Below, one piece after another: positions 4,532 through 23,444 of a stretch of DNA of 62,169 nucleotides (positions within the stretch are counted from its first letter, which is position 1; each line of letters starts with the position of its first letter). The notes under the pieces are model-generated. The model had not been told where the DNA came from and did no database searches. It saw only the letters and a list, made by a program, of their open reading frames with translations. The stretch comes from Alphaproteobacteria bacterium (GTDB taxonomy: Bacteria > Pseudomonadota > Alphaproteobacteria > Rhodobacterales > Rhodobacteraceae), in the NCBI GenBank assembly GCA_030431935.1, contig JAUIIC010000001.1, positions 1-62,169 on the forward strand, given 5' to 3'. The translations under genes and the position numbers were made by a program.

Positions 4532-6421
4532 ATGTATTCTTGGCTGATCGACCTGCCCCGCGCAGTGAAGCGCGCGATGTTGATAACGCTGGATACGGCG
4601 CTCATTCCCGCATGCCTGTATCTTGCCTTCGTGCTGCGCCTCGATCCCAGCTGGCTGCCGATCTTCCTCGAACGCTCCTGGGCGCTGTTTCCTCTCCTGA
4701 CGGTCTCCGGGATCGCCGTGCTCGTGGTCTGGCGGCTCGACAGCTTCAAGATCCATGCCTTCGAGGCGCGGGCCTCGATTCGCTTTGCCTTTGCCGCGGC
4801 CACGATGGCGGTGATCGCCATGGGGCTCAGCTATACGTTCCAGCTTGGCGTGCCGCGCTCGGTTCCCATCATCTTCGCGGGCCTCTACACGCTTTGCACC
4901 GTCTGCGTGCGCATCGGGGCGCAGGCCTTCTTCGAATGGCTGGCCAAGCGCAGCTCGCGGATGATCCCGGTGGCCGTCTACGGGGCGGGGGCGGCCGGCA
5001 TCCAGCTTGTCTCGGCGCTGCGCCGCTCGCGCGAGGTGACGCCGGTCGCCTTCGTCGACGACAACCACACCCTGCACGGGCTTGTGGTGGCGAACCTGCC
5101 GGTGCGCTCGCCCGCCACGCTTCAGGGCATGATCGCCTCCGGCCGGATCCAGCGCGTGCTGATCGCCATTCCGTCGCTGTCGCGCATCCGCCGCCGCCAG
5201 CTGATCGCCGAGCTGTCGGGGCTCGGGGCCGAGGTCCAGGTGCTGCCCTCCTTCATCGAACTGATGGACGGCCCCGCGCTGGAGGACCAGCTGCGCACCG
5301 TCGATCCCGACGATCTGCTGGGGCGCGAGGCGGTGAACCTCGACATTCCCGACGTCGCCAAGGCCTATGCCGGGCGCAGCGTGATGGTCACCGGCGCCGG
5401 AGGCTCCATCGGGTCGGAACTGTGCCGCCAGCTGGTGTCCTGCGGTCCCGCGCGCGTCGTGCTGTTCGAACTGAACGAGTTCGCGCTCTATTCCATCGAC
5501 GCCGACATGCGCGCCCTGACCGAGGGCACGGGCATCCAGGTGGTGCCGCGGCTCGGCTCGGTCTGCGACCGCGCCCGCGTAGACCAGGTGATCGCCGACC
5601 AGGGGGTCGAGATCGTCCTGCACGCCGCGGCCTACAAGCACGTTCCCCTCATCGAGGAGAACGAGGCCGAAGGCGCCGCCAACAATGTCATCGGCACCCA
5701 GACCGTGGCCGAGGCGGCGCGCGAGGCCGGGCTCGAGCGCTTCATCCTCGTCTCCACCGACAAGGCGGTGCGTCCCACAAACATCATGGGCGCGACCAAG
5801 CGCATGGCCGAACTGGTGGTGCAGGACCTTCAGACGCGCTCGCCCCGGACCAAGTTCGCCATCGTGCGCTTCGGTAACGTCCTTGGGTCATCGGGCTCCG
5901 TCCTGCCGCTGTTCCAGCGCCAGATCGCATCGGGTGGGCCGGTGACCGTCACCCATCAGGACGTGACCCGCTTCTTCATGACGATCCCCGAGGCGTCGCG
6001 CCTGGTGCTCCTGGCCGGCGCCTACGCCGAAGGCGGGGACCATTTCGTTCTCGACATGGGCGAGCCGCGCAAGGTCATCGACATCGCCCGACGCATGATC
6101 GCGCTGGCGGGTCGCACCGTGCGCGAGGAAGGGTCCGAGGACGGCGAGATCGAGATCAAGGTGATCGGCCTGCGCCCCGGCGAGAAGCTGTACGAGGAAC
6201 TGTTGATCGACAACGACAGCCTTGTGAAGACGCCGCACTCCAAGATCCTGCGCGCCGAGGAAAAGGCGCTGTCCCAGATCGAGGTCGCGGCGATGATGCG
6301 CGAACTGAACGCGGCCATCGCCGAAAACGATGCGCCGCGCGTCCGGGCCGCCGTGCGCAAGTGGGTCGAGGGTTACCATCCTCCGGCGGTTTCCACGGAC
6401 GCCGCAAGGCTTGGAACCTGA
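4532..6421 (+). CDS. Membrane-anchored polysaccharide biosynthesis protein, CapD/PglF/WbpM type (UDP-HexNAc 4,6-dehydratase family)
   Basis: 629 aa. It has four predicted N-terminal TM helices and a central Rossmann segment (VYGAGAAG). An extended SDR domain follows, with VTGAGGSIGSEL, AAYKHVP, TDKAVRPTNIMGATKR and VRFGNVLGSSGSV. All are typical of the CapD/PglF family. Confidence 0.85.
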   Translation: MYSWLIDLPRAVKRAMLITLDTALIPACLYLAFVLRLDPSWLPIFLERSWALFPLLTVSGIAVLVVWRLDSFKIHAFEARASIRFAFAAATMAVIAMGLSYTFQLGVPRSVPIIFAGLYTLCTVCVRIGAQAFFEWLAKRSSRMIPVAVYGAGAAGIQLVSALRRSREVTPVAFVDDNHTLHGLVVANLPVRSPATLQGMIASGRIQRVLIAIPSLSRIRRRQLIAELSGLGAEVQVLPSFIELMDGPALEDQLRTVDPDDLLGREAVNLDIPDVAKAYAGRSVMVTGAGGSIGSELCRQLVSCGPARVVLFELNEFALYSIDADMRALTEGTGIQVVPRLGSVCDRARVDQVIADQGVEIVLHAAAYKHVPLIEENEAEGAANNVIGTQTVAEAAREAGLERFILVSTDKAVRPTNIMGATKRMAELVVQDLQTRSPRTKFAIVRFGNVLGSSGSVLPLFQRQIASGGPVTVTHQDVTRFFMTIPEASRLVLLAGAYAEGGDHFVLDMGEPRKVIDIARRMIALAGRTVREEGSEDGEIEIKVIGLRPGEKLYEELLIDNDSLVKTPHSKILRAEEKALSQIEVAAMMRELNAAIAENDAPRVRAAVRKWVEGYHPPAVSTDAARLGT

Positions 6422-6611
6422 CGCGCCCCGGTGACGCAGGGCCAGATTCGGGTTGCGAAGGCGGGGATGGTCGCTTTATGTGCGCGGACAACACAGATGA
6501 TGACCCGAAACGCGCGCCCGCCGGATCAAGCACCCGCATGACACCCTCCGCCCATGACCTGACCCGCCGCCATGTTGCATGGCGGGCCGCCCATCGTGCA
6601 GAGGGCACCGT

Positions 6612-7424
6612 ATGCCGTTGACCGATCCCGCGCAGACACCCGCCGTGCATCCCACGGCCATCGTCGAGGACGGTGTGCAGCTTGGCGAAGGCGTTCGCAT
6701 CGGCCCGTATTGCGTGGTCGGCGCCGGATCCGTCCTGAAGGACGGGGTCGAGCTGCGCTCGCATGTCGTGGTCGAGGGCCGCACCACCCTTGGCGAAGGC
6801 ACGGTCGTTCATCCCTTCACCACGCTGGGCAGCGCACCCCAGCACCTGCGCTACGAGGGCGAGGATACCGCGCTTGTCGTCGGTGCGAACTGCGTGATCC
6901 GCGAACAGGTCTCGATCCACCGGGGCACCGCGCTGGGCGGCGGCGAAACCGTGATCGGCGCCAACGCGCTGGTGATGGCGGCCAGCCACATCGCCCATGA
7001 CTGCCACATCGGCGAGAACGTCATCGTCGCGTCGAACTGCACGCTCGGCGGGCATGTCGTCGTGGGCGACAACGTCTTTCTCGGCGGCCTGGCCGGGGTG
7101 CACCAGTTCTGCCGCATCGGCGCCCATGCCTTCGTCGGCGGCCTCGCTGCCGTCCACAGCGACGTGATCCCCTTCGGCTCGGCCATCGGCAACCGCGCCA
7201 AGCTGGGCGGGCTGAACCTTGTCGGGCTCAAGCGGGCGGGCTTCAGCCGTTCGACCATCAACGACATCCGTTCGGGCTACCGCGATCTCTTCAACGACGA
7301 CGTCGACAGCTTCAAGGAGCGGGTGGCCCAGGTCGCGCAGCGCTATGCCCATTCGCCCGAAGTCATGATGATCGTCGAGTTCATCGGCGCCGACACCAGC
7401 CGCCCCATACTGGGCGCGCGCTAG
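6612..7424 (+). CDS. lpxA: Acyl-ACP--UDP-N-acetylglucosamine O-acyltransferase (LpxA family)
   Basis: ORF 6579..7424, trimmed to the ATG at 6612. It has left-handed beta-helix hexapeptide repeats and LpxA signatures (IHPTAIV-like start, GSAPQHLRYEGE, IAHDCHIG, GGLNLVGLKRAGFS). The helical C-terminal domain is also LpxA-like. Confidence 0.85.
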   Translation: MPLTDPAQTPAVHPTAIVEDGVQLGEGVRIGPYCVVGAGSVLKDGVELRSHVVVEGRTTLGEGTVVHPFTTLGSAPQHLRYEGEDTALVVGANCVIREQVSIHRGTALGGGETVIGANALVMAASHIAHDCHIGENVIVASNCTLGGHVVVGDNVFLGGLAGVHQFCRIGAHAFVGGLAAVHSDVIPFGSAIGNRAKLGGLNLVGLKRAGFSRSTINDIRSGYRDLFNDDVDSFKERVAQVAQRYAHSPEVMMIVEFIGADTSRPILGAR

Positions 7425-7429
7425 GGCGG

Positions 7430-8467
7430 ATGCCTGACCCCCGGTTCTTTCCCGTCCCCGATCCGGTCACGCTGGAGCAGGCCGCGCGCCTGACCGGCGC
7501 GCGCCTGTCCGACGGCGCCGATCCCGCGCAACGGATCACCTCGGTCGCGCCCGTCGACAGCGCCGGCCCGGGCGACGCCGCCTTCCTCGCCAGCCCGTCC
7601 GACACCGCTCGCCTCGACGCCTCGCGCGCGGGGGCCTGCTTTGTCACGCCTGCGCTGGCCGCGAAGCATCCCGGCGGCCGCGCCCTTCTGATCCACGACG
7701 CGCCGCAACGGGCCTTCGTCGCGCTGGCCCGTCACCTCTTTCCCGAACCGCCCCTGCAGCCCGGCATCAGCCCCGCCGCCCATGTCGCCGACGGCGCGCT
7801 GGTGGGCGCGGGCTGCCGCATCGACCCCGGCGCGGTGATCGAGGACGGGGCCGAGATAGGCGCGGGCAGCTGGATTCGCGCCGGCAGCGTCATCTGCGAG
7901 AACGTCGTCATCGGCGAGGGCGCCCGCATCGGCCCCAACGCCACCATCACCCACGCCATCCTCGGCGCGGGCGTCATCGTCCACGCGGGCGCCGCCATCG
8001 GGCAGGACGGCTTCGGCTATGTCCCAGGTCCGGCGGGGCTGGTGAAGGTGCCGCAACTGGGCCGCGTCCTGATCGGCGACGATGTCGAGATCGGGGCCAA
8101 CACCACCATCGACCGGGGCGCTGGCGGCGATACCGAGATCGGGCAGGGCACCAAGATCGACAACCAGGTGCAGATCGGCCACAACTGCCGCATCGGTCGC
8201 TTCTGCGCGCTGGCCAGCCAGGTGGGGCTGTCGGGCAGCGTCACCGTGGGCGACGGCGTCCAGATGGGGGGCAAGTCCGGCTCTGCCGACCACATCACCA
8301 TCGGCGCGGGCGCGAAACTGGCGGCGGGCACCGGGCTGATGCGCGACGTGCCGCCGGGTGCGGTCATGGCGGGCCGCCCGGCGCTGCCGATCAAGGACTG
8401 GCACCGCGATACCGTGAACCTGAAACGCCTGCGCGACCGCCGCCCGACGAAGGACAAGGACCAGTGA
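7430..8467 (+). CDS. lpxD: UDP-3-O-acylglucosamine N-acyltransferase (LpxD family)
   Basis: 345 aa. It has the typical alphaproteobacterial LpxD N-terminus (MPDPRFF...). A long hexapeptide-repeat beta-helix follows (QDGFGY, GRVLIGDDVEIGANTTIDRG, IDNQVQIGHN). It starts 5 nt after the lpxA stop. Confidence 0.85.
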   Translation: MPDPRFFPVPDPVTLEQAARLTGARLSDGADPAQRITSVAPVDSAGPGDAAFLASPSDTARLDASRAGACFVTPALAAKHPGGRALLIHDAPQRAFVALARHLFPEPPLQPGISPAAHVADGALVGAGCRIDPGAVIEDGAEIGAGSWIRAGSVICENVVIGEGARIGPNATITHAILGAGVIVHAGAAIGQDGFGYVPGPAGLVKVPQLGRVLIGDDVEIGANTTIDRGAGGDTEIGQGTKIDNQVQIGHNCRIGRFCALASQVGLSGSVTVGDGVQMGGKSGSADHITIGAGAKLAAGTGLMRDVPPGAVMAGRPALPIKDWHRDTVNLKRLRDRRPTKDKDQ

Positions 8468-9423
8468 AGATCCTCATCACCGGCGCCTCGGGATGCGTCG
8501 GGCGCTACCTTGTCGAGGCGCTGCTGGCCAACCCCGACCATCGCCTCGTCCTCGGCGTGCGCGAGGCCGCCAAGCTCGACGTGCTGTCCGACGCCGACCG
8601 CGCCCGCGTCGAGATCGTGGAATGCGACCTGACCGAACTCGCCGCGCGGCCAGAGGCGTTCGACGGCGTCGAGGCGGGCGTCCTTGTCGCCACCGCCTGG
8701 GGCGGGGGCGACACCTACGACATCACCGTGGGCGCCAACCTTGCCATCGCCGACGCGCTGATCGCCGCGGGTGCGCGCCATGTCCTCTACTTCGCCACCG
8801 CCAGCGTGCTCGACCAGCAGGGCGACCTGTTGCAGGCCGCGGACACCTTCGGCACCGACTATATCCGCGCCAAGTTCCAGCTTGTGCAGCAGATGGAAAC
8901 CCGCGCCGACCGGGCGCGCATCACCGGGCTTTATCCGACGCTGGTGATGGGCGGGCGCACCGCCGCGCCCGCGATCCGCATGTCGCATTTCGCCAACCTG
9001 ATGCACGAGATCCGCCCCTACGCCTGGGCGCTGCGCTTCATCAGCGCCAATGGCCTGTTCAACATCGTCCATGCCGCCGACATCGCGACCGTCACCCGCC
9101 ACCTGATCGAGACGGTGACGGACACGACCGGCAACGCGCGGCTTGTCCTCGGCAACCCCGCCGGCTCGGTGGACGAGATGATGGCCCAGTTCGCCCGCGC
9201 CAACGGCCGGCGCCAGCGCACGATCCTGCGCCTGCGCACGTCATGGGTGGACACGCTGACCCGGGTGCTGCCGATAAACCTGTCGCCCTGGGACCGCTTC
9301 TGCGTCGACCATCCCGACCAGTCGCACCCGGCCGCGGTGAACCCCGCCACCTACGGCCTGCCCGTGGTCATGCCCGACCTCGTCTCGGGCCTCGCCTCCA
9401 TCGGGATTTCCGGACGCGGCTGA
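8464..9423 (+). CDS. NAD(P)-dependent epimerase/dehydratase-family protein (atypical SDR)
   Basis: The GTG start at 8464 overlaps the lpxD stop by 4 nt. ILITGASGCVGRYL is a GxxGxxG dinucleotide fold, and YIRAK is a YxxxK motif. Confidence 0.7.
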   Translation: MKILITGASGCVGRYLVEALLANPDHRLVLGVREAAKLDVLSDADRARVEIVECDLTELAARPEAFDGVEAGVLVATAWGGGDTYDITVGANLAIADALIAAGARHVLYFATASVLDQQGDLLQAADTFGTDYIRAKFQLVQQMETRADRARITGLYPTLVMGGRTAAPAIRMSHFANLMHEIRPYAWALRFISANGLFNIVHAADIATVTRHLIETVTDTTGNARLVLGNPAGSVDEMMAQFARANGRRQRTILRLRTSWVDTLTRVLPINLSPWDRFCVDHPDQSHPAAVNPATYGLPVVMPDLVSGLASIGISGRG

Positions 9424-9493
9424 CGGATTTTGCGTGCCTGCCCTGTCGCCCGCCGTATGCTCGGGCAACGCAACGCCATGGAAAGCGCGCCCG

Positions 9494-10006
9494 ATGCCGC
9501 AAATCGACATTCACCTCGCCGAAACAGACGACGACCACGCCGCGATCCGCGCCTTGTGCCACGACTGGGTCGACTGGCAGCTGCGCACCTTCCCGGACAA
9601 GCACGACAAGATCCTGACCGTGTTCGAGCCGGTACAATACGCCGCCACCCTTGCCGCCCTGCCGCAGATCCACGCCCGGCCCAAGGGCGCCATCCTGCTG
9701 GCCCGGCTGGACGGGGCGCCGGTGGGCTGCGTGATGTATCACGACTGGGAGCCCGGCGTGGCCGAGGTCAAGCGCCTTTTCGTGGCCGAGGCGGGGCGCG
9801 GCCACGGCCTTGGCCGCGCCCTTCTGACAGCGATGCTGGAGGCGATGAAATCCGACGGCTACGCCATCGCACGCTTCAGTTCCGCGCGCTTCCTCACCCA
9901 TGCCCGCGCGCTTTACGAGGCGATGGGATTTCAGGACATCCCGCAGCCGCCCGACTTCCCCGATGCGCTGCGGGACACCGTCTATTTCATGGAACGTCCG
10001 ATCTGA
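9494..10006 (+). CDS. GNAT-family N-acetyltransferase
   Basis: ORF 9434..10006, trimmed to the ATG at 9494. It carries the acetyl-CoA motif A (RLFVAEAGRGHGLGRALL) and a C-terminal YEAMGF segment typical of GNAT folds. Confidence 0.75.
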   Translation: MPQIDIHLAETDDDHAAIRALCHDWVDWQLRTFPDKHDKILTVFEPVQYAATLAALPQIHARPKGAILLARLDGAPVGCVMYHDWEPGVAEVKRLFVAEAGRGHGLGRALLTAMLEAMKSDGYAIARFSSARFLTHARALYEAMGFQDIPQPPDFPDALRDTVYFMERPI

Positions 10007-11077: not shown

Positions 11078-11096
11078 GGCGCCGCCCCCCGCGCGC

Positions 11097-12197: not shown

Positions 12198-12287
12198 CCT
12201 GATCGTCAAGACGAATGTCCCCGTATGTTTCCGCCGTCTTAGCGGCAGTCGCGGGACGGTTCCAGAGGGCGTGTGCCGGGAAGCGCG

Positions 12288-13313: not shown

Positions 13314-13580
13314 GAATGACTGCCTTCCGCACCCCAGGCGTTCGGCGGTTCGTCTAGACGACGACGCGCGTTGTGGAAAGCCTATAGGTGGGGATATGTC
13401 CTTGAAAGCGGATTCTCGCTAAATCTTGGGCAGGATGCAGGGCCGCAACACCAGTATTGCCGGACTTCCTGCGCCCCCGGGCCGGTCTTGGCGTCACCTT
13501 GCCGAGATCGCGGCTTCTCTGACGGCGGAAAACGCCCTAGGTGTAGGCGCCAACCCGTTTCAGACAGGCCGGGCGACCCG

Positions 13581-15972: not shown

Positions 15973-17644
15973 GGCGGTGCCCGGGCAGGCACCAACGGCC
16001 GACGCGGCCTCGGCCCTGTCGCGCGGCTGGCAGGCGGCGGTGGCACGCCCCGTTCTTGCAATCCTGACGCTGGTGATCCTGCAGCACGGGCTGACCATCG
16101 GCCTGAAGGACCTGTGGTTTTCCGACGAGGTCCGCCACGGCGACGTTCTGCGCAACCTGCTCGAGGGCGGAGACTGGCTGGCGTTGAAGCTGAACGGTGC
16201 CTTCTATCCCGACAAGCCGCCGCTCTATTTCTGGTATCTTGGCGCGCTGGCGCTGGTTTTCGGCTCGACCGCGCCCTGGGTGCTGTATGTCGGGCTGGCG
16301 GGCACGGTCCTGATGCTGCTGCTGGCCACGCATCACATGGCGCGGCGGATCACCGGCGACGATGAACTGGCGCTGATCGCCGTGCTGATCCTGGCCAGCG
16401 GCTTCTACTGGCTGGGCCTGACCCATTACGCGCGCATGGACATGATGTTCGCCGCCGCCATCGCGCTGGCCTGGACACAGGTCTGGCGGGCGCTGGACGG
16501 GCCGGTGAACCGGCGCGCGATGCTCTGGGCCTTCGGCTGGATGGCGGTGGCCGCGATGATAAAGGGGCCGGTCGGGCCGATGCTGCCGCTTCTGTCGCTG
16601 GCGGGCTGGGCGCTTTGGCAGCGCCGGGCGGCCGATCTGCTGGACCGCTCGGTGCTTGGAGGCGTGCTCTTGCTGGCGGGGGTGATCGGTGTCTGGGCGG
16701 GCGGCGTCGTCCTGGTGGCGGGGCCCGAGTTCTTCGCCCATCTCTTCCAGTCGCAGATCGTCGACAGAGGGCTGAACCGGGGCGGCGGCGGGCTTTGGGG
16801 CTGGCTGCGCTATGGCCTGACACTGCCGCTGGTGTTCTTGCCTTGGACGTTGCTGTTCCTGGTGCCGCGCGGCGCCAGCCCCCTGCCGGAGCAGTGCGGC
16901 ACGGCGTTTCTCTGGCTGACGGCGGGGCTCGGGGCGCTGTCGCTGTCGCTGGTCTCCGAAAAGCACGAATACTACCTCGTGCCCCTTTTCGTGCCGCTCG
17001 CGATCCTTGCGGCGGGACGGTACCGGACGTTGGGCGCGGGCCGGCTGCGGCTGTTCTGGGGCCTGGCGGTCGCGGTGTCGGTGTCGTTGGGGGCGCTCTT
17101 TGTCGTTGCACCGCGCCTTCTGGATCTGCCTGGGGTCGATCTGGGCGACTATGGCCCGCTTCTCGGCACGCTCGCGCTGCCGGGGGTGGTGCTGGCGGCT
17201 GGCGCCATGGCGGTCTGGGTGCTGCGGCGGCACGCGCAGGCGGCCCTTCTGGGCTGGGCGGGCCTTGTCTCGGTCTTCGGCGTGGTGCTGGCGGTCTCGG
17301 TCCTGCCGCCGGTGAACGCGGTCCTGAGCCCGCGCGGCGTGGCCGACGCCATGTCCGCGCATGTCGCGGCGGGGCACGCGCCCGGGGCTTTCCTCGGGGG
17401 CGATGGCACGCTGGCCTATCACATGGGACGCCCCTATGCCGATCCCTGGTCGTCGGCGGGGTTCACCGCATGGCTCGACGCGACGCCGCGCGCGGTCGCG
17501 GTGCTTGGCGCCGACGACTGGGCCCAGCTGGCCAGCGGCTATCCTGGCGTGGGCATCGTCGAGTGCACGCGGCTGGCGGGCCGGGCGCTGGTGATCGTGG
17601 CGCGCCCCGCGCCAGAGGCAATCAGGGAGTGCGCCGCGCACTAG
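15959..17644 (+). CDS. ArnT/PMT-like GT-C family membrane glycosyltransferase (GT83/GT39-like)
   Basis: Multi-TM protein of 561 aa. The N-terminal periplasmic loop motif DEVRHGDV...YPDKPPLYFW, followed by many TM helices (MIKGPVGP), is typical of ArnT-type lipid-linked sugar transferases. There is no ATG near the 5' end, so the start is taken as the GTG at 15959. That start overlaps the lptG stop by 14 nt and is uncertain. Confidence 0.7.
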   Translation: MRRARAVPGQAPTADAASALSRGWQAAVARPVLAILTLVILQHGLTIGLKDLWFSDEVRHGDVLRNLLEGGDWLALKLNGAFYPDKPPLYFWYLGALALVFGSTAPWVLYVGLAGTVLMLLLATHHMARRITGDDELALIAVLILASGFYWLGLTHYARMDMMFAAAIALAWTQVWRALDGPVNRRAMLWAFGWMAVAAMIKGPVGPMLPLLSLAGWALWQRRAADLLDRSVLGGVLLLAGVIGVWAGGVVLVAGPEFFAHLFQSQIVDRGLNRGGGGLWGWLRYGLTLPLVFLPWTLLFLVPRGASPLPEQCGTAFLWLTAGLGALSLSLVSEKHEYYLVPLFVPLAILAAGRYRTLGAGRLRLFWGLAVAVSVSLGALFVVAPRLLDLPGVDLGDYGPLLGTLALPGVVLAAGAMAVWVLRRHAQAALLGWAGLVSVFGVVLAVSVLPPVNAVLSPRGVADAMSAHVAAGHAPGAFLGGDGTLAYHMGRPYADPWSSAGFTAWLDATPRAVAVLGADDWAQLASGYPGVGIVECTRLAGRALVIVARPAPEAIRECAAH

Positions 17645-17662
17645 GCGCGGTGGGCGTGGAAC

Positions 17663-18412
17663 ATGGCGGATGCACGCTGGCACAAGGTCTACCTGGCGGA
17701 GATCCACGATCTCTATCCCGGGATGCAGCCCGGGGCCGAGGCCCTGCGCGCCGTCTTTCCGCAGGCCGCGCGCGACCGCGTGGCCTGGTCCATCGTGCCG
17801 AACTGGCAGGATCGCCTGGCGTTGACCGGCCACCCCCAGGCGGCGGCAGAGCTTGCCGCCCTGCCCGGAACGCCGGTCCTGCATGGCTGGACCCACAGCC
17901 TTGGCCCCGACTGGATCAACTGGCTGTTCTACGGCCACGACAACCGGTCAGAGTTCCTGCGCCTGTCCGAGGCCGAGGCCGGCGACCGGATCGCCCGTGG
18001 GCTGGCCGAGTTCCGCGCCGCACTCGACGTGACGCCGCGCTGGTTCTGCGCGCCGCGCTGGCAGTTGGGTGCGGGTGGCGCGGCGGCCCTGCGCAAGGCC
18101 GGGTTCGCCGGACATCTCTCGGGCGCGGGGATCGAGGTCTACGGCGAAGGCAGGGTGCCCTTGCCGGCGCTGAACTTCGACGAGGGCGAGCGGGGCTGGA
18201 AACAGGCGCTGGCGCGGCTGGCGCGGGCGCCCAGGGCGCGGCGGCTCTTGTCGCGCGGCACGCCCTTCCGGCTGGTCATCCATCCCGACGACCTGCGCTT
18301 TCCGGCGGTGCGGGCGGACCTGGAACGCTGCGTCGCGGCGATGGAGGCCGACGGCTGGCGGCCGCTCGGGCTTGACGAGATGCTGGCGCTGTGGCGACAG
18401 GTGCGTCCATGA
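17663..18412 (+). CDS. DUF2334-like protein (predicted polysaccharide-deacetylase-fold enzyme)
   Basis: 249 aa. The pattern IHDLYP...SIVPNW...LHGWTH...EF...RWFCAPRW...VIHP matches my memory of the DUF2334 / putative deacetylase family. No signal peptide is present. Confidence 0.55.
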   Translation: MADARWHKVYLAEIHDLYPGMQPGAEALRAVFPQAARDRVAWSIVPNWQDRLALTGHPQAAAELAALPGTPVLHGWTHSLGPDWINWLFYGHDNRSEFLRLSEAEAGDRIARGLAEFRAALDVTPRWFCAPRWQLGAGGAAALRKAGFAGHLSGAGIEVYGEGRVPLPALNFDEGERGWKQALARLARAPRARRLLSRGTPFRLVIHPDDLRFPAVRADLERCVAAMEADGWRPLGLDEMLALWRQVRP

Positions 18413-19605
18413 CGGCGCCGCGCATTCTTTTTGCCTCGAACGGGCATGGCGAGGACGACATCTCGTGCAAGGTGCTGGATGCGCTTGCGGCCAGCGGCGT
18501 GCCGTTCGAGCCCGAGGCCTGGGCGATGGTGGGCGAGGGGCGCGCCTATACCGCGCGCGGGGTGCCGCTGGTCGGGCCGCAACAGCGCCTGCCCGGAGAG
18601 GGCTTCGGCACGATCAGCATCGCGGCGCTCTGGCGCGACCTGCGGGCGGGGTATGTCGGCTCGCTCTGGGCGCAGGCGCGGTTCGCCCGAAGCCTTCGCG
18701 GCCGGCATGACCTGATCTTCGGCACCGGCGATATCATGCCGCTGCTGGCGGGGTGGTTCTCGGGCACGCCGATGCTGTTCATTCCAAGCGCCAAGTCCGC
18801 CTATTACGGCGGCGCGGACGGACATACGGGCATCGAGCGCTGGCTGATGCGCCGCGTGGCGCGCGACAGCTTTCCCCGCGATGCGCGCACGGCGGACGGG
18901 CTGGCCGCGCAAGGCGTCCCAGTGCGCTACCTCGGCAACCCGATGATGGACGGGCTGGACCCGGTGTCACCCGAAAGCCTGCGGGGCCGTGGCGTGACGG
19001 TGGCGATGATGGCGGGCTCGCGCCGGGATGCCGTGGAGAACGCGGTGCTGCTTCTCGACGCTGCGGCGACGGCCGCCGCCGCGGACGAAGAGCCGTCCAG
19101 GTTCGCCTTTCTCTTCGCCGCGCACGAGGCGCTGGACTTCCAGCGGGTGGCCGCGACCGCGCCCATCGCCTGGGAGCGCGGCCAATGGGACCGGCCGCTC
19201 GACGACCGGGGCGAGGCGATGTGCCTGCGGCACCGGACCGGGGCGGCGGCGCTGTTCGTCAAGGGCCGGTTCGCCGACGTGCTCCATGCCTCGGACATGG
19301 TGGCCGGAATGGCGGGCACCGCCAACGAGCAGGCGATCGGGCTGGGCCTGCCTCTGGTTGCCGTGCCGGGGCAGGGCAACCAGGGGCCGGCCTACCTGCG
19401 GATGAAGATGCGCTATTACGGCCCGGCCGCGGTCTTTGCCCCGCGCGAGCCCGACGCGGTGGCGCGGGCGATCCGGGATGTGCTGTCGGACCCGGTGCGC
19501 CGCCGCGAGATGGCGGCGGCGGGGCGCGAGCGGATGGGCGCGCCAGGGGCCAGCGCGGCGATCGCGGCGCGCGTGGCGGCGATGCTGGAGGCCGGCGATG
19601 GCTGA
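18409..19605 (+). CDS. Lipid-A-disaccharide synthase-related protein (LpxB superfamily, GT-B; SNGHGED-type)
   Basis: ORF 18391..19605. The ATG at 18409 overlaps the upstream stop (ATGA). ILFASNGHGEDDIS, GNPMMDGL, MAGSRRDA (compare LPGSR in LpxB) and GMAGTANEQAIGLGLPLV are the signatures I associate with the LpxB-related family. Confidence 0.65.
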   Translation: MTAPRILFASNGHGEDDISCKVLDALAASGVPFEPEAWAMVGEGRAYTARGVPLVGPQQRLPGEGFGTISIAALWRDLRAGYVGSLWAQARFARSLRGRHDLIFGTGDIMPLLAGWFSGTPMLFIPSAKSAYYGGADGHTGIERWLMRRVARDSFPRDARTADGLAAQGVPVRYLGNPMMDGLDPVSPESLRGRGVTVAMMAGSRRDAVENAVLLLDAAATAAAADEEPSRFAFLFAAHEALDFQRVAATAPIAWERGQWDRPLDDRGEAMCLRHRTGAAALFVKGRFADVLHASDMVAGMAGTANEQAIGLGLPLVAVPGQGNQGPAYLRMKMRYYGPAAVFAPREPDAVARAIRDVLSDPVRRREMAAAGRERMGAPGASAAIAARVAAMLEAGDG

Positions 19606-20587
19606 TCCTGCGGTCTCCATCGTCATCACCGCCCACAACGAGGCCGCCCATATCGGAGCGACCGTGGCCGCCGCGGCGGCCCAGGCGGGTGTGCCCGGCG
19701 GCTTCGAGATCGTGCTGGTGGACGACCGCAGCACAGACGGCACCGCCGAGGCGGCGCGCGCGGCGGGGGGCGATCTGCTGCGGCTCTACCCCGGCGCGCC
19801 GGACCCCGCGTCGCCGCTGACGACGCGGCAACAGGCGCTGGACCTCGCTTTCCGCAAGGCGCGCGGGCAGGTGATCCTGACGCTCGACGCCGACAGCGCG
19901 ATGGCCCCGGACTGGGCGGCCAGGATGGCCGCCCCGATGCTGGAGGGCCGTGCCGATGCGGTGGCCGGGCGCATCGGCTTTGCCCCGGCGGACCACTGGG
20001 TCGCGCGCTGGCAGACCTGCGATGCGCAGTATTACTTCCTCGTCTCCGCGCTGCTGGTCAGGGCTGGGTTCGGCGGCGGCGTCTTCTTCGGGAACTTCGG
20101 GTTTCGCCGGGCGCTCTACGACCAGGTCGGCGGGTTCGAGGCGATCGGCTTTGCCCTGACCGAGGATCTTGCCTTCGCCCAGGCGATCCAGGCGGCTGGG
20201 GCGCGGCTCGACTTCGCGGGGCAGGACGCGCGCGTCGACGTCAGGCCTTGCGCCGATTTCCCGGCGCTGGTCACCCGCACGCTGCGGATCTCTGCCGGGC
20301 GGGTCTCGGCCCTGGCGCTGGTGCTGACGGTCTGGCCGCTGAGCTTGCCAGCGCTGATCCTGCTGGCGCTGCTGACCGGCGCGGGCGGGGCATGGGTTGC
20401 GGTGGGGCTGCGCTATGGGCTAGGCGTGGCGCTTGTCCGGGCGGCGCTGGCCGGGCACCCCGACCGGCGCGTGCGCGGCTTCGCGCCGTTCTACGAGCCG
20501 GTGGTCTACCGGCTGTCGGCGGCGGTGCTGGCGCGCGTGTTGCGCCGTGAAAGGGTAGGATGGGGAGGCGGGCAGTATGGCCGCTGA
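19598..20587 (+). CDS. Family-2 glycosyltransferase with C-terminal transmembrane segments
   Basis: ORF 19436..20587, trimmed to the ATG at 19598, which overlaps the upstream stop by 8 nt. VSIVITAHNEAAHI...EIVLVDDRSTDGT...ILTLDADS is a GT2 core. The hydrophobic C-terminal third (ALALVLTVWPLSLPALILLALL) suggests membrane integration. Confidence 0.75.
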   Translation: MADPAVSIVITAHNEAAHIGATVAAAAAQAGVPGGFEIVLVDDRSTDGTAEAARAAGGDLLRLYPGAPDPASPLTTRQQALDLAFRKARGQVILTLDADSAMAPDWAARMAAPMLEGRADAVAGRIGFAPADHWVARWQTCDAQYYFLVSALLVRAGFGGGVFFGNFGFRRALYDQVGGFEAIGFALTEDLAFAQAIQAAGARLDFAGQDARVDVRPCADFPALVTRTLRISAGRVSALALVLTVWPLSLPALILLALLTGAGGAWVAVGLRYGLGVALVRAALAGHPDRRVRGFAPFYEPVVYRLSAAVLARVLRRERVGWGGGQYGR

Positions 20588-21317
20588 GCGCAGGCAACGG
20601 GCCGCGGGGACAGTGCGTCCCTATGAACCGCGCGACCGCGCGGCGGTGCGCGACATCTGCTGCCGCACCGCCTTTCGCAACATGGGCTCGGATGCCCTGT
20701 TCGAGGATCGCGAGATCCATGCCGATTACTGGACGCTCTACAACACCGATCACCGGCCCGACCTGACCACGGTGATCGAGCAGGACGGAGAGGTGGTGGG
20801 CTATTTCTTCGCCCAGCCCGACCACAAGGAATTCGTGCGCATCATGGGGCGGCGGATCGTGCCGTCCTGTATCCTGCGCGCGCTTTGGCGCTGGGCGCTG
20901 GGGCGCTACAGGAAGCCCGAGACCAAGCGCTACATCCGCCACACGCTATTCCGGGCCTGGAAAGAGGCGCCGCAGGTCGATTACGACAAGTACCCGGCCA
21001 CCTATCACTGCAACATGCTGCGGCAGGCCTATGGACGGGGCTACTATACACAGCTTCTGCTGGACTATCTCGACCAGCTGGAGGCGCAGGGCATCCACGG
21101 CATCCACGGCCATGTGACCGAGGCACCGGGCAAGGGCATCTGGAAGCGCTTCGAAGAGACCTCGGGCTTTCTGTCGGACGAACAGTCCGAGGTGCCCGCA
21201 ACGATGTTTGCCTATGTCACCGGCGACGACAGGCCGATGGCGAACAAGGCCATCGGCGCCCCGGTGGAGCGTTTTCGCAAGTGGGTGCTGTGGCTGCGAG
21301 AGGAAAAGCGGCTGTGA
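20577..21317 (+). CDS. Hypothetical acyl-CoA N-acyltransferase-like (GNAT-like) protein
   Basis: 246 aa. The start overlaps the upstream gene by 11 nt. VRPYEPRDRAAVRDICCRTAF...GEVVGYFFA resembles the N-terminal half of GNAT enzymes. The assignment is tentative. Confidence 0.45.
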   Translation: MAAERRQRAAGTVRPYEPRDRAAVRDICCRTAFRNMGSDALFEDREIHADYWTLYNTDHRPDLTTVIEQDGEVVGYFFAQPDHKEFVRIMGRRIVPSCILRALWRWALGRYRKPETKRYIRHTLFRAWKEAPQVDYDKYPATYHCNMLRQAYGRGYYTQLLLDYLDQLEAQGIHGIHGHVTEAPGKGIWKRFEETSGFLSDEQSEVPATMFAYVTGDDRPMANKAIGAPVERFRKWVLWLREEKRL

Positions 21318-22579
21318 CCGGCCCCGGCACCGAGGCCGCGGCGCGGCCCCAGCTTGTCATCACCGTGAACGGCCCCGGCGAGATCGCGGCCTGGCTTTAC
21401 CCCCTGAGCGTCGCCGTCAGGCGTGCGCGCCCCGACATCCGCATCTGCGTGTGCCTTCTGCCTTGCGTCTTTTCGTCGGGCGCCGAGCGCGGGGTTCTGG
21501 ACGGGATGGAGACCGTGGACGCCGTGGCGGATGTCGGCCAGTCCTTCGGCCTGATCCTGAAGGACCGGCTGCCCGATGGCTTCCGGCGCGACGTGCCGAC
21601 GCTTCTGTTCCATCTGGGCGGAGAGACCGCGCTGACCGTGCTGATCGCCCGCAGGCTGGGCTGCAGGATGTTCGGCTATGCCGAGGCGCCCCCGGGCTGG
21701 CAGGGCCGGTTCGAGCGCCTGTTCTTCAGCGGGTTGAACAAGCTGCCGCCGGCCATCCCGCCCGAGGACATCGTGGGCGACATGATGGTGGACGCGGCCG
21801 ACCTGCGCCGCGCCGCCGCGCGCCGCGACGCGGACGGCACCACGACGATCGGGCTGTTTCCCGGCAGCCGAGACTACATGGTCGGGCCGCTTCTGCCCTT
21901 CATGGCGGCGGCGGCCGACGAATTGGCCCGGCGCCGCCCGGCGCTACGCTTTGTCATGGCAAAGTCCGATTTCCTCGACTGGGATTTCCTCGCCAACCTG
22001 CCGCGCAGCGATCCCGGCGCCGAGTGGGCGGTCAGCGAGGTGACGCTTCACCGCGAGGACGGGCGGGCCTGGCTGATGACGGGGGCGGGCACAAGGATCG
22101 ACGTCCTGACCAATGCACAGGTGCTTGCCGGGGCAGATCTGGCCGTGTCCCTGCCGGGCACCAATACAGGCGAGATGGGGGCGGCCGGCCTGCCCAGCGT
22201 GGTGATCGTGCCGCTGCACATGGCCAACCGCAACGCGCATCAGACCCCGCTGCCGGGCTTGCCGGGGCACGTGGGGCGCATCCCGCTGATCGGCCCGCCG
22301 CTGCAGCGCCTCTTCGCGCACCAGGCGCTCAAGCGCACGCCGCTCCTGTCGCTGCCGAACCGGCGCGCGGGGCGGATGATCGTGCCGGAACTGGTGGGCG
22401 ACCTGACGCCCGGCGATATTGCCGACACGCTGGAGACCCTTCTCGACGGCGATCGCGCCGCCCTGTCGGCAGAGTTGAGAGCGGCAATGGGGGCAGGCGG
22501 GGCGGCGGCCCGGCTGGCCGACGAGATCGACGGCTATTTCCGCGCGCTGGTCCCGGCGGCGGCCCCCTCGAACGCCTGA
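21314..22579 (+). CDS. Lipid-A-disaccharide synthase-like glycosyltransferase (LpxB/GT19-like)
   Basis: Same frame as ORF 20885..22579. The start is taken as the GTG at 21314, in a GTGA overlap with the upstream stop. It lies just before LVITVNGPGEIAAW, the equivalent of the GETSGD loop region. LFPGSRDY (LpxB LLPGSR) and LLSLPNRRAGRMIVPELVG (LpxB VSLPNLLAGRELVKELL) support LpxB homology. Confidence 0.65.
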   Translation: MTGPGTEAAARPQLVITVNGPGEIAAWLYPLSVAVRRARPDIRICVCLLPCVFSSGAERGVLDGMETVDAVADVGQSFGLILKDRLPDGFRRDVPTLLFHLGGETALTVLIARRLGCRMFGYAEAPPGWQGRFERLFFSGLNKLPPAIPPEDIVGDMMVDAADLRRAAARRDADGTTTIGLFPGSRDYMVGPLLPFMAAAADELARRRPALRFVMAKSDFLDWDFLANLPRSDPGAEWAVSEVTLHREDGRAWLMTGAGTRIDVLTNAQVLAGADLAVSLPGTNTGEMGAAGLPSVVIVPLHMANRNAHQTPLPGLPGHVGRIPLIGPPLQRLFAHQALKRTPLLSLPNRRAGRMIVPELVGDLTPGDIADTLETLLDGDRAALSAELRAAMGAGGAAARLADEIDGYFRALVPAAAPSNA

Positions 22580-23376: not shown

Positions 23377-23444
23377 GCCCCGCCTATAGACCGCGCTGCG
23401 GGGTTTCGCCAGAAAGGAGGAACGGGCAAGGAGGAGGACCTGCG

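What the first reader, a model, noticed from the sequence alone, without database searches (positions are those of the whole stretch)
4532..22579. An 18-kb block combining Lpx, Lpt and Arn-like parts: candidate pathway for a second, lipid-A-like glycolipid with its own LptFG-type pair
Sixteen consecutive genes form this block.
- Plus strand: a membrane-anchored CapD/PglF-type dehydratase, lpxA, lpxD, an atypical SDR and a GNAT.
- Divergent minus-strand unit: Gfo/Idh/MocA oxidoreductase, DegT aminotransferase and a GT2.
- One tightly coupled plus-strand operon: lptF, lptG, an ArnT-like GT-C, DUF2334, an LpxB-related gene, a GT2, a GNAT-like gene and an LpxB-like gene. Several junctions overlap by 4-14 nt.

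In proteobacteria the usual layout is bamA-lpxD-fabZ-lpxA-(lpxI)-lpxB, with lptFG next to pepA. None of that context is present here: there is no fabZ, lpxC, lpxH/I, lpxK, waaA, bamA or pepA.

The content suggests one of two things. It may be a paralogous route that builds, decorates and extracts a distinct acylated amino-sugar glycolipid. Alternatively it may be an unusual consolidation of the core LPS genes. I do not know of a characterised system with this composition.
Basis: partly seen in the sequence, partly recalled or inferred. Interest (0 to 1): 0.85.

Follow-up and report, generated by a model that had tools for sequence, protein, structure and literature searches.

The report
Variant LPS locus replacing canonical LptFG
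A gene cluster conserved in a few Paracoccaceae and uncultured relatives joins diamino-sugar lipid A enzymes, an uncharacterised deacetylase and LpxB-like glycosyltransferases to a divergent LptF/LptG pair, and that pair seems to have replaced the normal lipopolysaccharide extractor genes rather than been added to them.

Summary
The 16-gene block is real, and every gene is under purifying selection. A core of about 12 genes recurs in at least 9 lineages: lpxA-lpxD, an SDR, a gnnA/gnnB-like pair, lptF-lptG, DUF2334, TIGR03492, a GT2/GT21, a GNAT-like gene and a GT19-like gene.

Ordinary Rhodobacterales have holC-pepA<>lptF-lptG-lptD-surA-pdxA. Two carriers of the block (a Meinhardsimonia xiamenensis-type genome and Anianabacter salinae) have pepA<>lptD, with lptF-lptG cleanly absent. 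The block's pair therefore looks like the only LPS extractor.

LpxA, LpxD, LptF and LptG resemble housekeeping genes of other alphaproteobacterial orders more than those of Paracoccaceae. This points to displacement by foreign copies.

My best reading is that this is the carriers' working LPS locus, a variant with a 2,3-diaminoglucose-type lipid A. In that reading the DUF2334 deacetylase and two LpxB-like GT-B enzymes perform uncharacterised steps, possibly those normally done by LpxC and LpxB.

I could not test whether carriers keep canonical lpxA/C/D/B/K. It is a new variant of a known kind, moderately to highly interesting, and testable in two cultured strains.

The parts
4532..6421 (+). 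Membrane-anchored CapD/PglF-type UDP-sugar 4,6-dehydratase. Accessory: found only in the window and its close MAG relative L001.
   Evidence: Pfam Polysacc_synt_2 385 bits. Four N-terminal TM segments. Present in L001 only.
6612..7424 (+). LpxA-type acyl-ACP:UDP-sugar acyltransferase (LpxA').
   Evidence: NCBIfam equivalog NF003657 329 bits against cutoff 226. The catalytic His (E. coli H125) is kept. Identity is 60% to a Parvularculaceae housekeeping LpxA, 46% to P. denitrificans and 43% to E. coli.
7430..8467 (+). LpxD-type N-acyltransferase (LpxD').
   Evidence: TIGR01853 335 bits against cutoff 242. The His matching E. coli H239 is invariant. Identity is 48-59% among carriers, 47% to Methylobacterium and 35% to E. 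coli and Parvularculaceae LpxD.
8464..9423 (+). Extended SDR (epimerase/NmrA-like), always next to lpxA'-lpxD'. Its substrate is unknown.
   Evidence: Pfam Epimerase and NAD_binding_10. TGxxGxxG, YxxxK and a C-terminal WD..HPDQ motif are invariant in 7 orthologues. Conserved in all loci that include this region.
9494..10006 (+). GNAT acetyltransferase. Accessory: window and L001 only.
   Evidence: Pfam Acetyltransf_1 57.7 bits; distribution.
10181..11077 (-). GT2 glycosyltransferase (EpsD-like). Semi-conserved.
   Evidence: Pfam Glycos_transf_2. NCBIfam EpsD 144 bits, below cutoff. Present in A. salinae at the same position. A 34%-identical GT2 follows the operon in L025.
11097..12209 (-). DegT-family sugar aminotransferase (GnnB-like).
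   Evidence: Pfam DegT_DnrJ_EryC1 331 bits. Conserved next to the Gfo gene in most carriers.
12288..13313 (-). Gfo/Idh/MocA UDP-GlcNAc 3-dehydrogenase-like enzyme (GnnA-like).
   Evidence: The best solved relative is 7BVJ, E 5e-30; 7BVJ is GnnA according to the preprint read. NCBIfam UDP-GlcNAc 3-dehydrogenase 159 bits, below cutoff.
13314..13580 (.). Divergent intergenic region between the gnnA-like gene and lptF'. Presumably holds promoters.
   Evidence: A spacer of about 220-350 nt is present in all carriers, but its sequence is conserved only between the window and L001. No Rfam family matches.
13581..14717 (+). LptF-type permease (LptF').
   Evidence: Pfam LptF_LptG 148 bits. TIGR04407 155 bits against cutoff 230. 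It has 3+3 TM segments and a central periplasmic domain, and the coupling-helix Glu is invariant. Identity is 17-18% to Rhodobacterales LptF and 25% to S. meliloti LptF.
14806..15972 (+). LptG-type permease (LptG').
   Evidence: Pfam 140 bits. TIGR04408 133 bits against cutoff 240. Coupling-helix Glu kept.
15959..17644 (+). ArnT/PMT-like GT-C glycosyltransferase. A recurrent optional member of the operon.
   Evidence: Pfam PMT 25.9 bits against cutoff 22.7. NCBIfam ArnT 86 bits against cutoff 567. About 10 TM segments. A 41%-identical gene sits at the same position in metagenome locus L025. Absent in the M. xiamenensis, A. salinae, L005, L020, L021, L023 and L024 versions.
17663..18412 (+). 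DUF2334/COG3233 metal-dependent N-deacetylase-like protein.
   Evidence: Pfam DUF2334 42.9 bits against cutoff 26. Full-length but sub-threshold match to the GlcNAc-PG deacetylase GpgD model, 53 bits against cutoff 280. E13, H15, D16, HGxTH, D173/E174 and H207/D210 are invariant. Present in every carrier and in the Gemmobacter module.
18409..19605 (+). TIGR03492 'lipid-A-disaccharide synthase-related' GT-B protein.
   Evidence: NCBIfam TIGR03492 274 bits against cutoff 219. The GSRR and GTANEQ motifs align with LpxB PGSR and SGT..E. hhalign against the last gene's family gives 94%.
19598..20587 (+). GT2/GT21-type glycosyltransferase; a crude hydropathy scan finds hydrophobic segments at residues 146-165 and 236-263.
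   Evidence: Pfam Glycos_transf_2 80 bits and Glyco_transf_21 56 bits. Hydrophobic segments. Conserved in all complete versions.
20577..21317 (+). GNAT-fold acetyltransferase-like protein with no family model.
   Evidence: PDB 4BMH 'acetyltransferase' E 4e-12 and 3ZJ0 E 4e-5. Identity to the window protein is 47-57% in the other carriers.
21314..22579 (+). Uncharacterised GT-B glycosyltransferase, distantly related to LpxB (GT19-like).
   Evidence: A 60-sequence family profile against an LpxB profile gives hhalign 99.4%, E 1e-21. The PGSR and PGT..GE motifs are kept. AF2 pLDDT is 94 with a GT-B fold. The family has 729 clusters at 50% identity, and every sampled member that carries a name is annotated 'hypothetical'.

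Best explanation
The block is the carriers' working lipopolysaccharide (lipid A) assembly and extraction locus. It was acquired from outside the Paracoccaceae and has displaced at least the canonical lptF-lptG genes. It is not an extra system running beside the normal one.

Proposed mechanism:
1. The GnnA-like dehydrogenase and the DegT aminotransferase convert UDP-GlcNAc to UDP-GlcNAc3N (inferred from homology).
2. LpxA' N-acylates position 3. The DUF2334 deacetylase removes the 2-N-acetyl group, which is the LpxC step. LpxD' then N-acylates position 2. The LpxA' and LpxD' assignments meet family thresholds and keep the catalytic His. The DUF2334 role is inferred from co-occurrence and from the GpgD/HexD precedent.
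3. The two LpxB-related GT-B enzymes, TIGR03492 and the GT19-like protein, use the acylated UDP-sugar to build the glycolipid backbone (inferred).
4. The GT2/GT21, the GNAT-like protein, the SDR and, where present, the ArnT-like GT-C, the second GT2, CapD and the GNAT decorate the lipid or its sugars (inferred).
5. LptF'G' extract the product from the inner membrane, powered by the housekeeping LptB and coupled through the conserved Glu. They pass it to the retained canonical LptC/A/D-E route. Carriers are shown to keep lptD-surA and to lack lptFG at the canonical site.
For: - The core is conserved in at least 9 lineages, with LptF' identity to the window's protein falling to 36%.
- All 16 genes have dN/dS of 0.03-0.18.
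- The canonical lptF-lptG genes are absent between pepA and lptD in two carriers. No LptF/G-like sequence is found in 22 kb and 14.6 kb around that site, and positive controls work in non-carriers. The genes are present at that site in Rhodovulum, Albidovulum aquaemixtae and S. meliloti.
- LptF'G' keep the 3+3 TM architecture and the coupling-helix Glu, and the block encodes no ATPase.
- LpxA' and LpxD' pass equivalog cutoffs and keep the catalytic His.
- LpxA' groups with the housekeeping LpxA of a Parvularculaceae MAG, which sits in a fully canonical bamA-lpxD-fabZ-lpxA-lpxI-lpxB context. It does not group with Paracoccus LpxA.
- The best solved relative of the Gfo gene is GnnA.
- DUF2334 has invariant His/Asp motifs. 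Its family includes GpgD, which deacetylates a GlcNAc-lipid.
- Neighbouring genes in different lineages are LPS or polysaccharide genes: rmlCBDA, GT-C, CapD.
- In M. xiamenensis, lpxA'-lpxD'-SDR lie about 6 kb from the lptD locus.
- The block sits at a homologous chromosomal site in three Paracoccaceae genera.
Against: - I could not read the rest of any carrier genome. A relocated canonical lptFG, or an intact canonical lpxA/C/D/I/B set, is therefore not excluded.
- Only two carriers and three non-carriers were compared at the pepA-lptD site.
- The block has no LpxH/I/G-type pyrophosphatase, no LpxK and no WaaA, so it cannot make a classical Kdo2-lipid A alone.
- LptF' and LptG' score below the NCBIfam equivalog cutoffs.
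- The fold search places the GT19-like protein among GT-B enzymes in general, with LpxB only at rank 19.
- A related lpxA'-lpxD'-SDR-gnnAB-DUF2334 module occurs in a Gemmobacter MAG without any lptFG nearby. That looks more like an accessory cassette.
Confidence: 0.55

Rival explanations
1. This is the first reader's preferred reading: a genuinely second, parallel pathway. Carriers keep the full canonical Raetz pathway. The block makes a distinct acylated diamino-sugar glycolipid, and LptF'G' are dedicated to it or shared with LPS.
For: - The block brings its own deacetylase and LpxB-like enzymes, as if it were independent of LpxC and LpxB.
- LpxA' and LpxD' are not the Paracoccaceae orthologues: 46% identity to P. 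denitrificans LpxA.
- The Gemmobacter MAG carries the Lpx' module with a GT4 and an UshA-like phosphoesterase but no lptFG nearby, like a self-contained accessory cassette.
- The fabZ-lpxA-lpxI-lpxB cluster includes fabZ, which I take from general knowledge to be essential, so that region is likely to persist.
Against: - The canonical lptFG genes are missing from their near-universal site in both carriers examined. An LPS-producing cell that keeps lptD would then have no extractor other than LptF'G'.
- No second lptFG or lpxA copy was seen in any fetched sequence, although coverage of those genomes is small.
Confidence: 0.22
2. In this reading only part of the block is unusual. The canonical LpxC/LpxI/LpxB/LpxK/WaaA enzymes are retained and build a normal GlcN3N lipid A together with LpxA' and LpxD'. 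The GT2/GT21, DUF2334 and ArnT-like genes form an Arn/Lgm/Rgt-style unit that adds a deacetylated amino sugar to lipid A. The two GT-B enzymes act on the core oligosaccharide.
For: - GT2 plus GT-C pairs that decorate GlcN3N lipid A are known in alphaproteobacteria: RgtE with RgtD/RgtF (PMC5644692).
- A glycosyltransferase plus a COG3233 deacetylase that makes an amino-sugar lipid is known: GpgS/GpgD.
- The GT-C gene sits directly before DUF2334 in the window and in L025.
- The block lacks LpxH/I, LpxK and WaaA, so other loci must contribute if the product is a classical lipid A.
Against: - The GT-C is absent from most versions of the operon, while DUF2334 and the GT2/GT21 are always present.
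- DUF2334 also accompanies gnnAB-lpxA'D' in the Gemmobacter module, which has no GT2/GT21 and no GT-C.
- The GT2/GT21 scores poorly against the ArnC-type polyprenyl-phosphate transferase model, at 20 bits.
Confidence: 0.18
3. In this reading the product is not a lipid A-type molecule. The hexapeptide acyltransferases N-acylate a diamino sugar destined for an O-antigen or capsule (WbpB/E/D-like chemistry), and the LptFG-like pair exports something else.
For: - A Gfo oxidoreductase, a DegT aminotransferase and a left-handed beta-helix acyltransferase together also make the UDP-2,3-diacetamido sugars of O-antigens. This is from my own knowledge of the Wbp pathway and was not tested here.
- The block neighbours rml genes and other polysaccharide genes.
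Against: - Both acyltransferases exceed the LpxA and LpxD equivalog cutoffs. They also carry the family-specific LpxA C-terminal domain and LpxD N-terminal domain.
- LptF' and LptG' match LptF and LptG respectively.
- The carriers have lost the canonical LptFG.
Confidence: 0.05

Closest known systems
GlcN3N-type Raetz pathway: GnnA/GnnB plus LpxA, LpxC, LpxD, LpxH/I, LpxB, LpxK and WaaA, as in Acidithiobacillus ferrooxidans, Mesorhizobium and Phyllobacterium
   Same: It shares a Gfo-family 3-dehydrogenase and a DegT aminotransferase next to true LpxA- and LpxD-family acyltransferases. It also shares the alphaproteobacterial setting and nearby GT2 and GT-C decoration genes.
   Different: - The locus has no LpxC, LpxH/I, LpxB, LpxK, WaaA or fabZ.
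- Instead it has a DUF2334 deacetylase, two distant LpxB relatives, a GT2/GT21, a GNAT-like protein and an SDR.
- lpxA and lpxD are adjacent without fabZ.
- The locus is co-located with lptFG.
LptB2FG(C), the LPS extractor of the inner membrane
   Same: There are two paralogous permeases, each best matching LptF or LptG respectively. Both have 6 TM segments, a periplasmic domain between TM3 and TM4 and the conserved coupling-helix Glu. Carriers keep the canonical lptD-surA locus.
   Different: - Identity to the LptF/G of other Rhodobacterales is only 17-24%, and both proteins fall below the equivalog cutoffs.
- The genes are not next to pepA/lptD but head an operon of glycolipid enzymes.
- In carriers the canonical pair is missing.
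GpgSDF (Pseudomonas aeruginosa GlcN-phosphatidylglycerol) and HexSDF (Clostridioides difficile): aminoglycolipid operons
   Same: A cytoplasmic DUF2334/COG3233 deacetylase is encoded next to a lipid-directed glycosyltransferase and a membrane export component.
   Different: - The deacetylase here is far below the GpgD equivalog cutoff (53 against 280 bits).
- The partner glycosyltransferases are GT19-like and GT2/GT21 rather than GT4, except in the Gemmobacter module.
- Export uses LptFG rather than a UPF0104 flippase.
- LpxA- and LpxD-type acyltransferases are present.
Paralogous lipid A gene sets: Legionella lpxA/lpxD/lpxB duplicates and Francisella LpxD1/LpxD2 (recalled from memory, not checked here)
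   Same: These are extra or alternative copies of Lpx genes outside the bamA-lpxD-fabZ-lpxA cluster.
   Different: Those are additional copies that tune the acyl chains of one lipid A, and they bring no LptFG pair. Here the transporter pair appears to be a replacement, and the cluster carries enzymes from outside the Raetz pathway.
ArnC/ArnT, RgtE/RgtD/RgtF and (from memory) Bordetella LgmABC: lipid A decoration units
   Same: A GT2 and an ArnT-like GT-C lie in an LPS locus. A deacetylase lies beside them, as I recall for Lgm.
   Different: The GT-C is optional in this cluster. The GT2/GT21 resembles HpnI- and EpsD-type enzymes more than ArnC.

Membership tests
LpxA (acyl-ACP:UDP-GlcNAc/GlcNAc3N acyltransferase) | Score above the NCBIfam equivalog cutoff, with the LpxA-specific C-terminal domain | tested here: met
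   NF003657 329 bits against 226; TIGR01852 326 against 231; Pfam Acetyltransf_11 75 bits.
LpxA (acyl-ACP:UDP-GlcNAc/GlcNAc3N acyltransferase) | Catalytic His (E. coli H125) | tested here: met
   'SHIAHDC' aligns with E. coli 'AHIAHDC' in all block copies.
LpxA (acyl-ACP:UDP-GlcNAc/GlcNAc3N acyltransferase) | Orthology to the host family's housekeeping copy, in the fabZ-lpxA-lpxI-lpxB context | tested here: not met
   Identity is 46% to P. denitrificans LpxA against 60% to a Parvularculaceae housekeeping LpxA. No fabZ, lpxI or lpxB lies nearby.
LpxD | Score above the equivalog cutoff, the LpxD N-terminal domain and the catalytic His (E. coli H239) | tested here: met
   TIGR01853 335 bits against 242.5; Pfam LpxD 57.8 bits; His invariant.
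LptF / LptG | Pfam LptF_LptG domain over the full length, 6 TM segments and a periplasmic domain | tested here: met
   148 and 140 bits against 27.9; 3+3 TM segments.
LptF / LptG | NCBIfam equivalog score | tested here: not met
   155 against 230 (LptF) and 133 against 240 (LptG).
LptF / LptG | Coupling-helix Glu that contacts LptB | tested here: met
   Glu is invariant in 14 aligned canonical and block sequences. The role of this residue is from my own knowledge.
LptF / LptG | Transports LPS; works with LptB and LptC | not testable with these tools
   There is only indirect support: the canonical pair is absent while lptD is kept in two carriers.
LpxB (GT19 lipid-A-disaccharide synthase) | Pfam or NCBIfam LpxB score above cutoff | tested here: not met
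   The last gene scores 15.9 bits against 22.6 in Pfam and 16 against 190 in TIGR00215. The TIGR03492 gene has no LpxB hit.
LpxB (GT19 lipid-A-disaccharide synthase) | Remote homology, with the UDP-binding PGSR and T..E motifs | tested here: met
   hhalign 99.4%, E 1e-21 for the last gene's family. The TIGR03492 gene gives 44%, E 2e-4. The motifs align in both.
LpxB (GT19 lipid-A-disaccharide synthase) | Fold closest to LpxB rather than to other GT-B enzymes | tested here: inconclusive
   The top Foldseek hits are UDP-GlcNAc 2-epimerases and MurG. LpxB ranks 19th with a low TM-score, perhaps because the crystal is a domain-swapped dimer.
TIGR03492 (lipid-A-disaccharide synthase-related protein) | Score above cutoff | tested here: met
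   274 bits against 219 over the full length. The family's function is unknown.
GnnA/GnnB (UDP-GlcNAc to UDP-GlcNAc3N) | A Gfo-family enzyme closest to characterised GnnA, with an adjacent DegT aminotransferase | tested here: met
   7BVJ (GnnA) is the best PDB match, E 5e-30 over the full length. DegT lies adjacent in most carriers.
GnnA/GnnB (UDP-GlcNAc to UDP-GlcNAc3N) | Demonstrated 3-oxidation and transamination of UDP-GlcNAc | not testable with these tools
   No equivalog model passed. The archaeal UDP-GlcNAc 3-dehydrogenase model gives 159 bits against 450.
GpgD / DUF2334 lipid-linked GlcNAc deacetylase | DUF2334 domain with conserved metal-binding His/Asp residues | tested here: met
   Pfam 42.9 bits against 26. 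HD and HGxTH are invariant.
GpgD / DUF2334 lipid-linked GlcNAc deacetylase | GpgD equivalog score | tested here: not met
   53 bits against 280.
ArnT (GT-C lipid A glycosyltransferase) | Equivalog score | tested here: not met
   86 bits against 567. Pfam PMT is only just above cutoff, 25.9 against 22.7.

The most novel reading that the evidence does not exclude
Carriers may have abandoned the classical Raetz pathway after LpxA and LpxD. They would then make their outer-membrane glycolipid by an undescribed route. In that route a DUF2334 deacetylase replaces LpxC, and two GT19-like GT-B enzymes replace LpxH/LpxB-type backbone assembly (a GT4 plus an UshA-like phosphoesterase do this in the Gemmobacter variant). 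The product would be a GlcN3N-based lipid, probably without phosphate or Kdo, and would need its own co-evolved LptFG pair for extraction.
Probability: 0.3. Interest if true: 0.85.

Novelty: new variant of a known kind. Interest (0 to 1): 0.62.

Why it matters
LptFG and the early Lpx enzymes are usually treated as near-invariant, essential housekeeping genes and as antibiotic targets. Here a whole cassette appears to have displaced the resident lptFG in a free-living alphaproteobacterial lineage. The cassette holds foreign LpxA and LpxD, GnnAB, a DUF2334 deacetylase, two LpxB-like enzymes and a divergent LptFG.

If this holds, it gives three things:
- A natural case of transporter and substrate being exchanged together.
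- Candidate functions for three families that currently have none: TIGR03492, the GT19-like family of about 700 clusters, and this DUF2334 branch.
- A possible non-LpxC deacetylation route in lipid A synthesis.

Two carriers, Meinhardsimonia xiamenensis and Anianabacter salinae, are named cultured species. Lipid A chemistry and genetics can therefore be done directly.

Tried and rejected
- **Exact look-up of the window's LpxD** found nothing on record.
- **The single genome-collection scan**, run with LptF', returned only one close MAG. It could not be used to look for second copies.
- **Plasmid or chromid location.** tblastn of the TIGR03492 gene and the GT19-like gene against 72,556 plasmid records found nothing. 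LpxA, LpxD and LptF' hit only canonical genes on mislabelled chromosomes. The window also carries clpP-clpX. I rejected a plasmid origin.
- **Retrieving a canonical LpxA from carrier genomes.** The LpxA homologue search lists only the best 120 hits, all at 55% identity or more, so a 45% paralogue would not show.
- **A 'PQH versus QD' motif in LpxA as a marker of GlcNAc3N specificity.** I dropped this because I could not verify it.
- **Sequence searches of PDB** with the TIGR03492 gene, the GT19-like gene and DUF2334 gave nothing useful.
- **Rfam** found no RNA family in 2.5-24 kb.
- **The divergent intergenic region** is not conserved beyond the closest relative.
- **Literature searches** for this gene combination, for TIGR03492 or LpxB-like proteins, and for LgmC found no description of such a cluster.

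Full report
**Observation.** The window has about 69% G+C, so raw ORF lists are noisy. I selected ORFs by third-codon-position GC and assigned families with Pfam and NCBIfam.
- LpxA and LpxD exceed the NCBIfam equivalog cutoffs (329 against 226 bits; 335 against 242.5 bits). Both keep their catalytic histidines.
- The Gfo/Idh/MocA gene is most similar among solved structures to 7BVJ, which is GnnA, the UDP-GlcNAc 3-dehydrogenase (E 5e-30). It is followed by a DegT aminotransferase.
- The plus-strand operon begins with LptF- and LptG-type permeases. Both pass Pfam at 148 and 140 bits but fall below the NCBIfam equivalog cutoffs.
- It continues with an ArnT/PMT-like GT-C, a DUF2334 protein and a TIGR03492 'lipid-A-disaccharide synthase-related' protein (274 against 219 bits).
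- It ends with a GT2/GT21, a GNAT-fold protein (PDB 4BMH, E 4e-12) and a protein with only a faint LpxB signal.
- The rest of the window holds phenylacetate catabolism genes, a P450, peptide transport genes, formate dehydrogenase and clpP-clpX. It contains no other LPS gene.
- Against a related MAG with 85-97% protein identity across the genes (L001), all 16 genes have dN/dS of 0.03-0.18.

**The block is a conserved unit.** LptF' has only 13 relatives at E<=1e-10 among 5.8 billion proteins. Their contigs, plus six metagenome loci, show the same core in at least nine lineages, with LptF' identity to the window's protein falling to 36%. The core is lpxA'-lpxD', an SDR, DegT and Gfo, placed divergently from lptF'-lptG'-DUF2334-TIGR03492-GT2/GT21-GNAT-like-GT19-like.
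- The ArnT-like gene recurs at the same position in one distant locus (L025, 41% identity).
- CapD and the small GNAT occur only in the window and L001.
- Named carriers are Meinhardsimonia xiamenensis and Anianabacter salinae, both Paracoccaceae.
- The downstream flank is syntenic among the window, M. xiamenensis (PaaX, PaaI) and A. salinae (Rrf2, M20 peptidase). This indicates inheritance at one chromosomal site within this subclade.
- In M. xiamenensis, lpxA'-lpxD'-SDR have moved to a site about 6 kb from lptD.

**Relation to housekeeping genes.**
- LpxA' is 60% identical to the LpxA of a Parvularculaceae MAG. That gene lies in a textbook pyrH-frr-uppS-cdsA-dxr-rseP-bamA-skp-lpxD-fabZ-lpxA-lpxI-lpxB array.
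- LpxA' is only 46% identical to P. denitrificans LpxA, which sits in fabZ-lpxA-lpxI-lpxB, and 43% to E. coli LpxA.
- In a neighbour-joining tree the block copies form one clade beside the Parvularculaceae-type sequences, with Paracoccus outside.
- LpxD' is closest to Hyphomicrobiales LpxD, at 47% to Methylobacterium.
- LptF'/G' match S. meliloti LptF/G better (26-28% identity, E about 1e-28 to 1e-30) than Rhodobacterales LptF/G (20-24% identity, E 1e-6 to 1e-13).
- These are therefore bona fide Lpx and Lpt family members, but they are not the Paracoccaceae orthologues.

**The decisive synteny test.** In S. meliloti, Rhodovulum sp. ES.010 and Albidovulum aquaemixtae the arrangement is holC-pepA<>lptF-lptG-lptD-surA-pdxA-rsmA. 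I used a fragment of the M. xiamenensis LptD as bait and retrieved this locus from two carriers.
- In both carriers pepA faces lptD directly, across 143 and 160 bp, and lptF-lptG are absent.
- tblastn with canonical and block LptF/G finds nothing better than E 0.8 in the 22-kb and 14.6-kb regions. The same queries find the genes in the non-carriers.
- The simplest reading is that the block's pair is the only LptFG in these cells. Because lptD-surA are retained, that pair must serve LPS export.

**The uncharacterised enzymes.**
- DUF2334 orthologues share invariant E-x-H-D, H-G-x-T-H, D-E and H-P-x-D motifs. The family (COG3233) includes GpgD, shown to deacetylate GlcNAc-phosphatidylglycerol, and HexD (PMC12713373). 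The match to the GpgD model is full-length but far below its cutoff.
- The last gene belongs to a family of 729 clusters at 50% identity. Every sampled member that carries a name is annotated 'hypothetical'.
- A 60-sequence profile of that family matches an LpxB profile at 99.4% probability (E 1e-21). The LpxB PGSR and T..E nucleotide-binding motifs are aligned.
- Its AlphaFold model (pLDDT 94) has a GT-B fold, but Foldseek does not single out LpxB.
- TIGR03492 is related to this family (94%) and weakly to LpxB.
- A Gemmobacter MAG carries gnnAB, SDR, lpxA'-lpxD' and DUF2334 together with a GT4 and an UshA-like metallophosphoesterase, and has no lptFG nearby. DUF2334 therefore follows the LpxA'/LpxD' pair in two different architectures.

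**Model.**
- Shown:
  - family membership of LpxA' and LpxD';
  - the LptF/G architecture with the coupling Glu;
  - conservation of the cluster;
  - loss of canonical lptFG in two carriers.
- Inferred:
  1. GnnA/B-like enzymes make UDP-GlcNAc3N.
  2. LpxA', DUF2334 and LpxD' produce a doubly N-acylated UDP-diamino sugar, with DUF2334 doing the LpxC step.
  3. The two LpxB-like enzymes assemble the backbone.
  4. The GT2/GT21, the GNAT-like protein, the SDR and the optional GT-C, GT2, CapD and GNAT decorate the product.
  5. LptF'G', with the housekeeping LptB, extract it towards LptD.

**Rivals.**
- A true second pathway beside an intact canonical one.
- A normal GlcN3N Raetz pathway in which the GT2, DUF2334 and GT-C genes are only an Arn/Rgt/Lgm-like decoration unit. 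Known alphaproteobacterial GlcN3N lipid A genetics (PMC5644692) makes this plausible.
- A polysaccharide-sugar pathway, which is unlikely given the LpxA and LpxD equivalog scores.

**Limits.** I could read only about 20 kb around chosen genes in carrier genomes. I therefore could not establish whether canonical lpxA, lpxC, lpxD, lpxI, lpxB, lpxK, waaA or a relocated lptFG are present in carriers. The pepA-lptD comparison rests on two carriers and three non-carriers.

**Verdict.** The 'second system with its own extra LptFG' interpretation is not supported for the transporter. 'The organism's only, rearranged LPS locus' is nearer the truth, but it understates that the genes are foreign replacements bundled with enzymes of unknown function. 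I rate it a new variant of a known kind, with interest about 0.6.

Noticed in passing
L014:8346-10001 and L016:8374-10001, compared with L017:4178-8001 and L018:4176-8001: In both block carriers examined, lptF-lptG are cleanly missing between pepA and lptD, leaving spacers of 143 and 160 bp. The flanking genes holC, pepA, lptD, surA and pdxA are kept.
   Followed up: yes
L010:5601-14360 (Gemmobacter sp. MAG, GCA_046292445.1): A variant module holds DUF2334, gnnA-like, DegT, SDR, lpxA' and lpxD', followed by a GT4 and an UshA-like metallophosphoesterase/5'-nucleotidase. There is no lptFG and no GT19-like gene. It could be a self-contained Raetz-like route with different enzymes at the LpxH and LpxB steps.
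   Followed up: partly
L008:10001-12835 / L014:18747-21581 and L002:8736-17415 (M. xiamenensis): In this species the cluster is split. lpxA'-lpxD'-SDR lie beside prfA-prmC, about 6 kb from lptD. The gnnA-like gene and the operon are on another contig, with no DegT gene next to gnnA.
   Followed up: partly
L025:2953-4743 and L025:12226-13884: This metagenome version (177-kb contig) has the in-operon ArnT-like GT-C and a second PMT-family GT-C upstream of lpxD'. It also has extra GT2 genes on both sides.
   Followed up: partly
L020:17991-21104 and L023:7988-10200: dTDP-rhamnose genes (rmlC, rmlB/D, rmlA) follow the operon in two distant versions. This fits an LPS or polysaccharide neighbourhood.
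   Followed up: partly
window 22534-23882 and 35828-37749; L002:17391-18741; L004:18629-20506: The downstream flank is syntenic across genera. PaaX and PaaI follow the block in the window, L001 and M. xiamenensis. Rrf2 and an M20 peptidase follow it in A. salinae, and they lie 13 kb further on in the window, beyond the paa cluster. The paaX ORF as listed (its start is uncertain) converges on the last block gene with a 46-nt overlap.
   Followed up: yes
window 2907-4502 (-): This 531-codon ORF has an Arg-rich first 197 codons, probably not coding. The remaining 334 residues contain an FFDTDT motif and match no Pfam or NCBIfam family. Among the fetched loci it is found only in the close MAG L001.
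   Followed up: partly
window 23445-35759: A phenylacetate catabolic cluster (paaI, paaZ-type aldehyde dehydrogenase-MaoC fusion, paaABCDE-like genes, thiolase, TetR) has a cytochrome P450 gene (25983-27308, -) inserted next to paaZ.
   Followed up: no
window 39300-40754 (-): A Hint_2-domain protein (PF13403, 156 bits) of 484 residues.
   Followed up: no
window 50937-56642 (-): A NAD-linked formate dehydrogenase-type operon: a NuoE-like 2Fe-2S subunit, a NuoF-like subunit, a molybdopterin subunit and fdhD. A divergent LysR regulator lies beside it.
   Followed up: no
whole window: The window equals an entire 62,169-bp contig: the longest contig recorded for its own LpxA is 62,169 bp. Gene content beyond it cannot be known for this organism. 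clpP-clpX at 59065-61079 indicate a chromosomal origin.
   Followed up: partly
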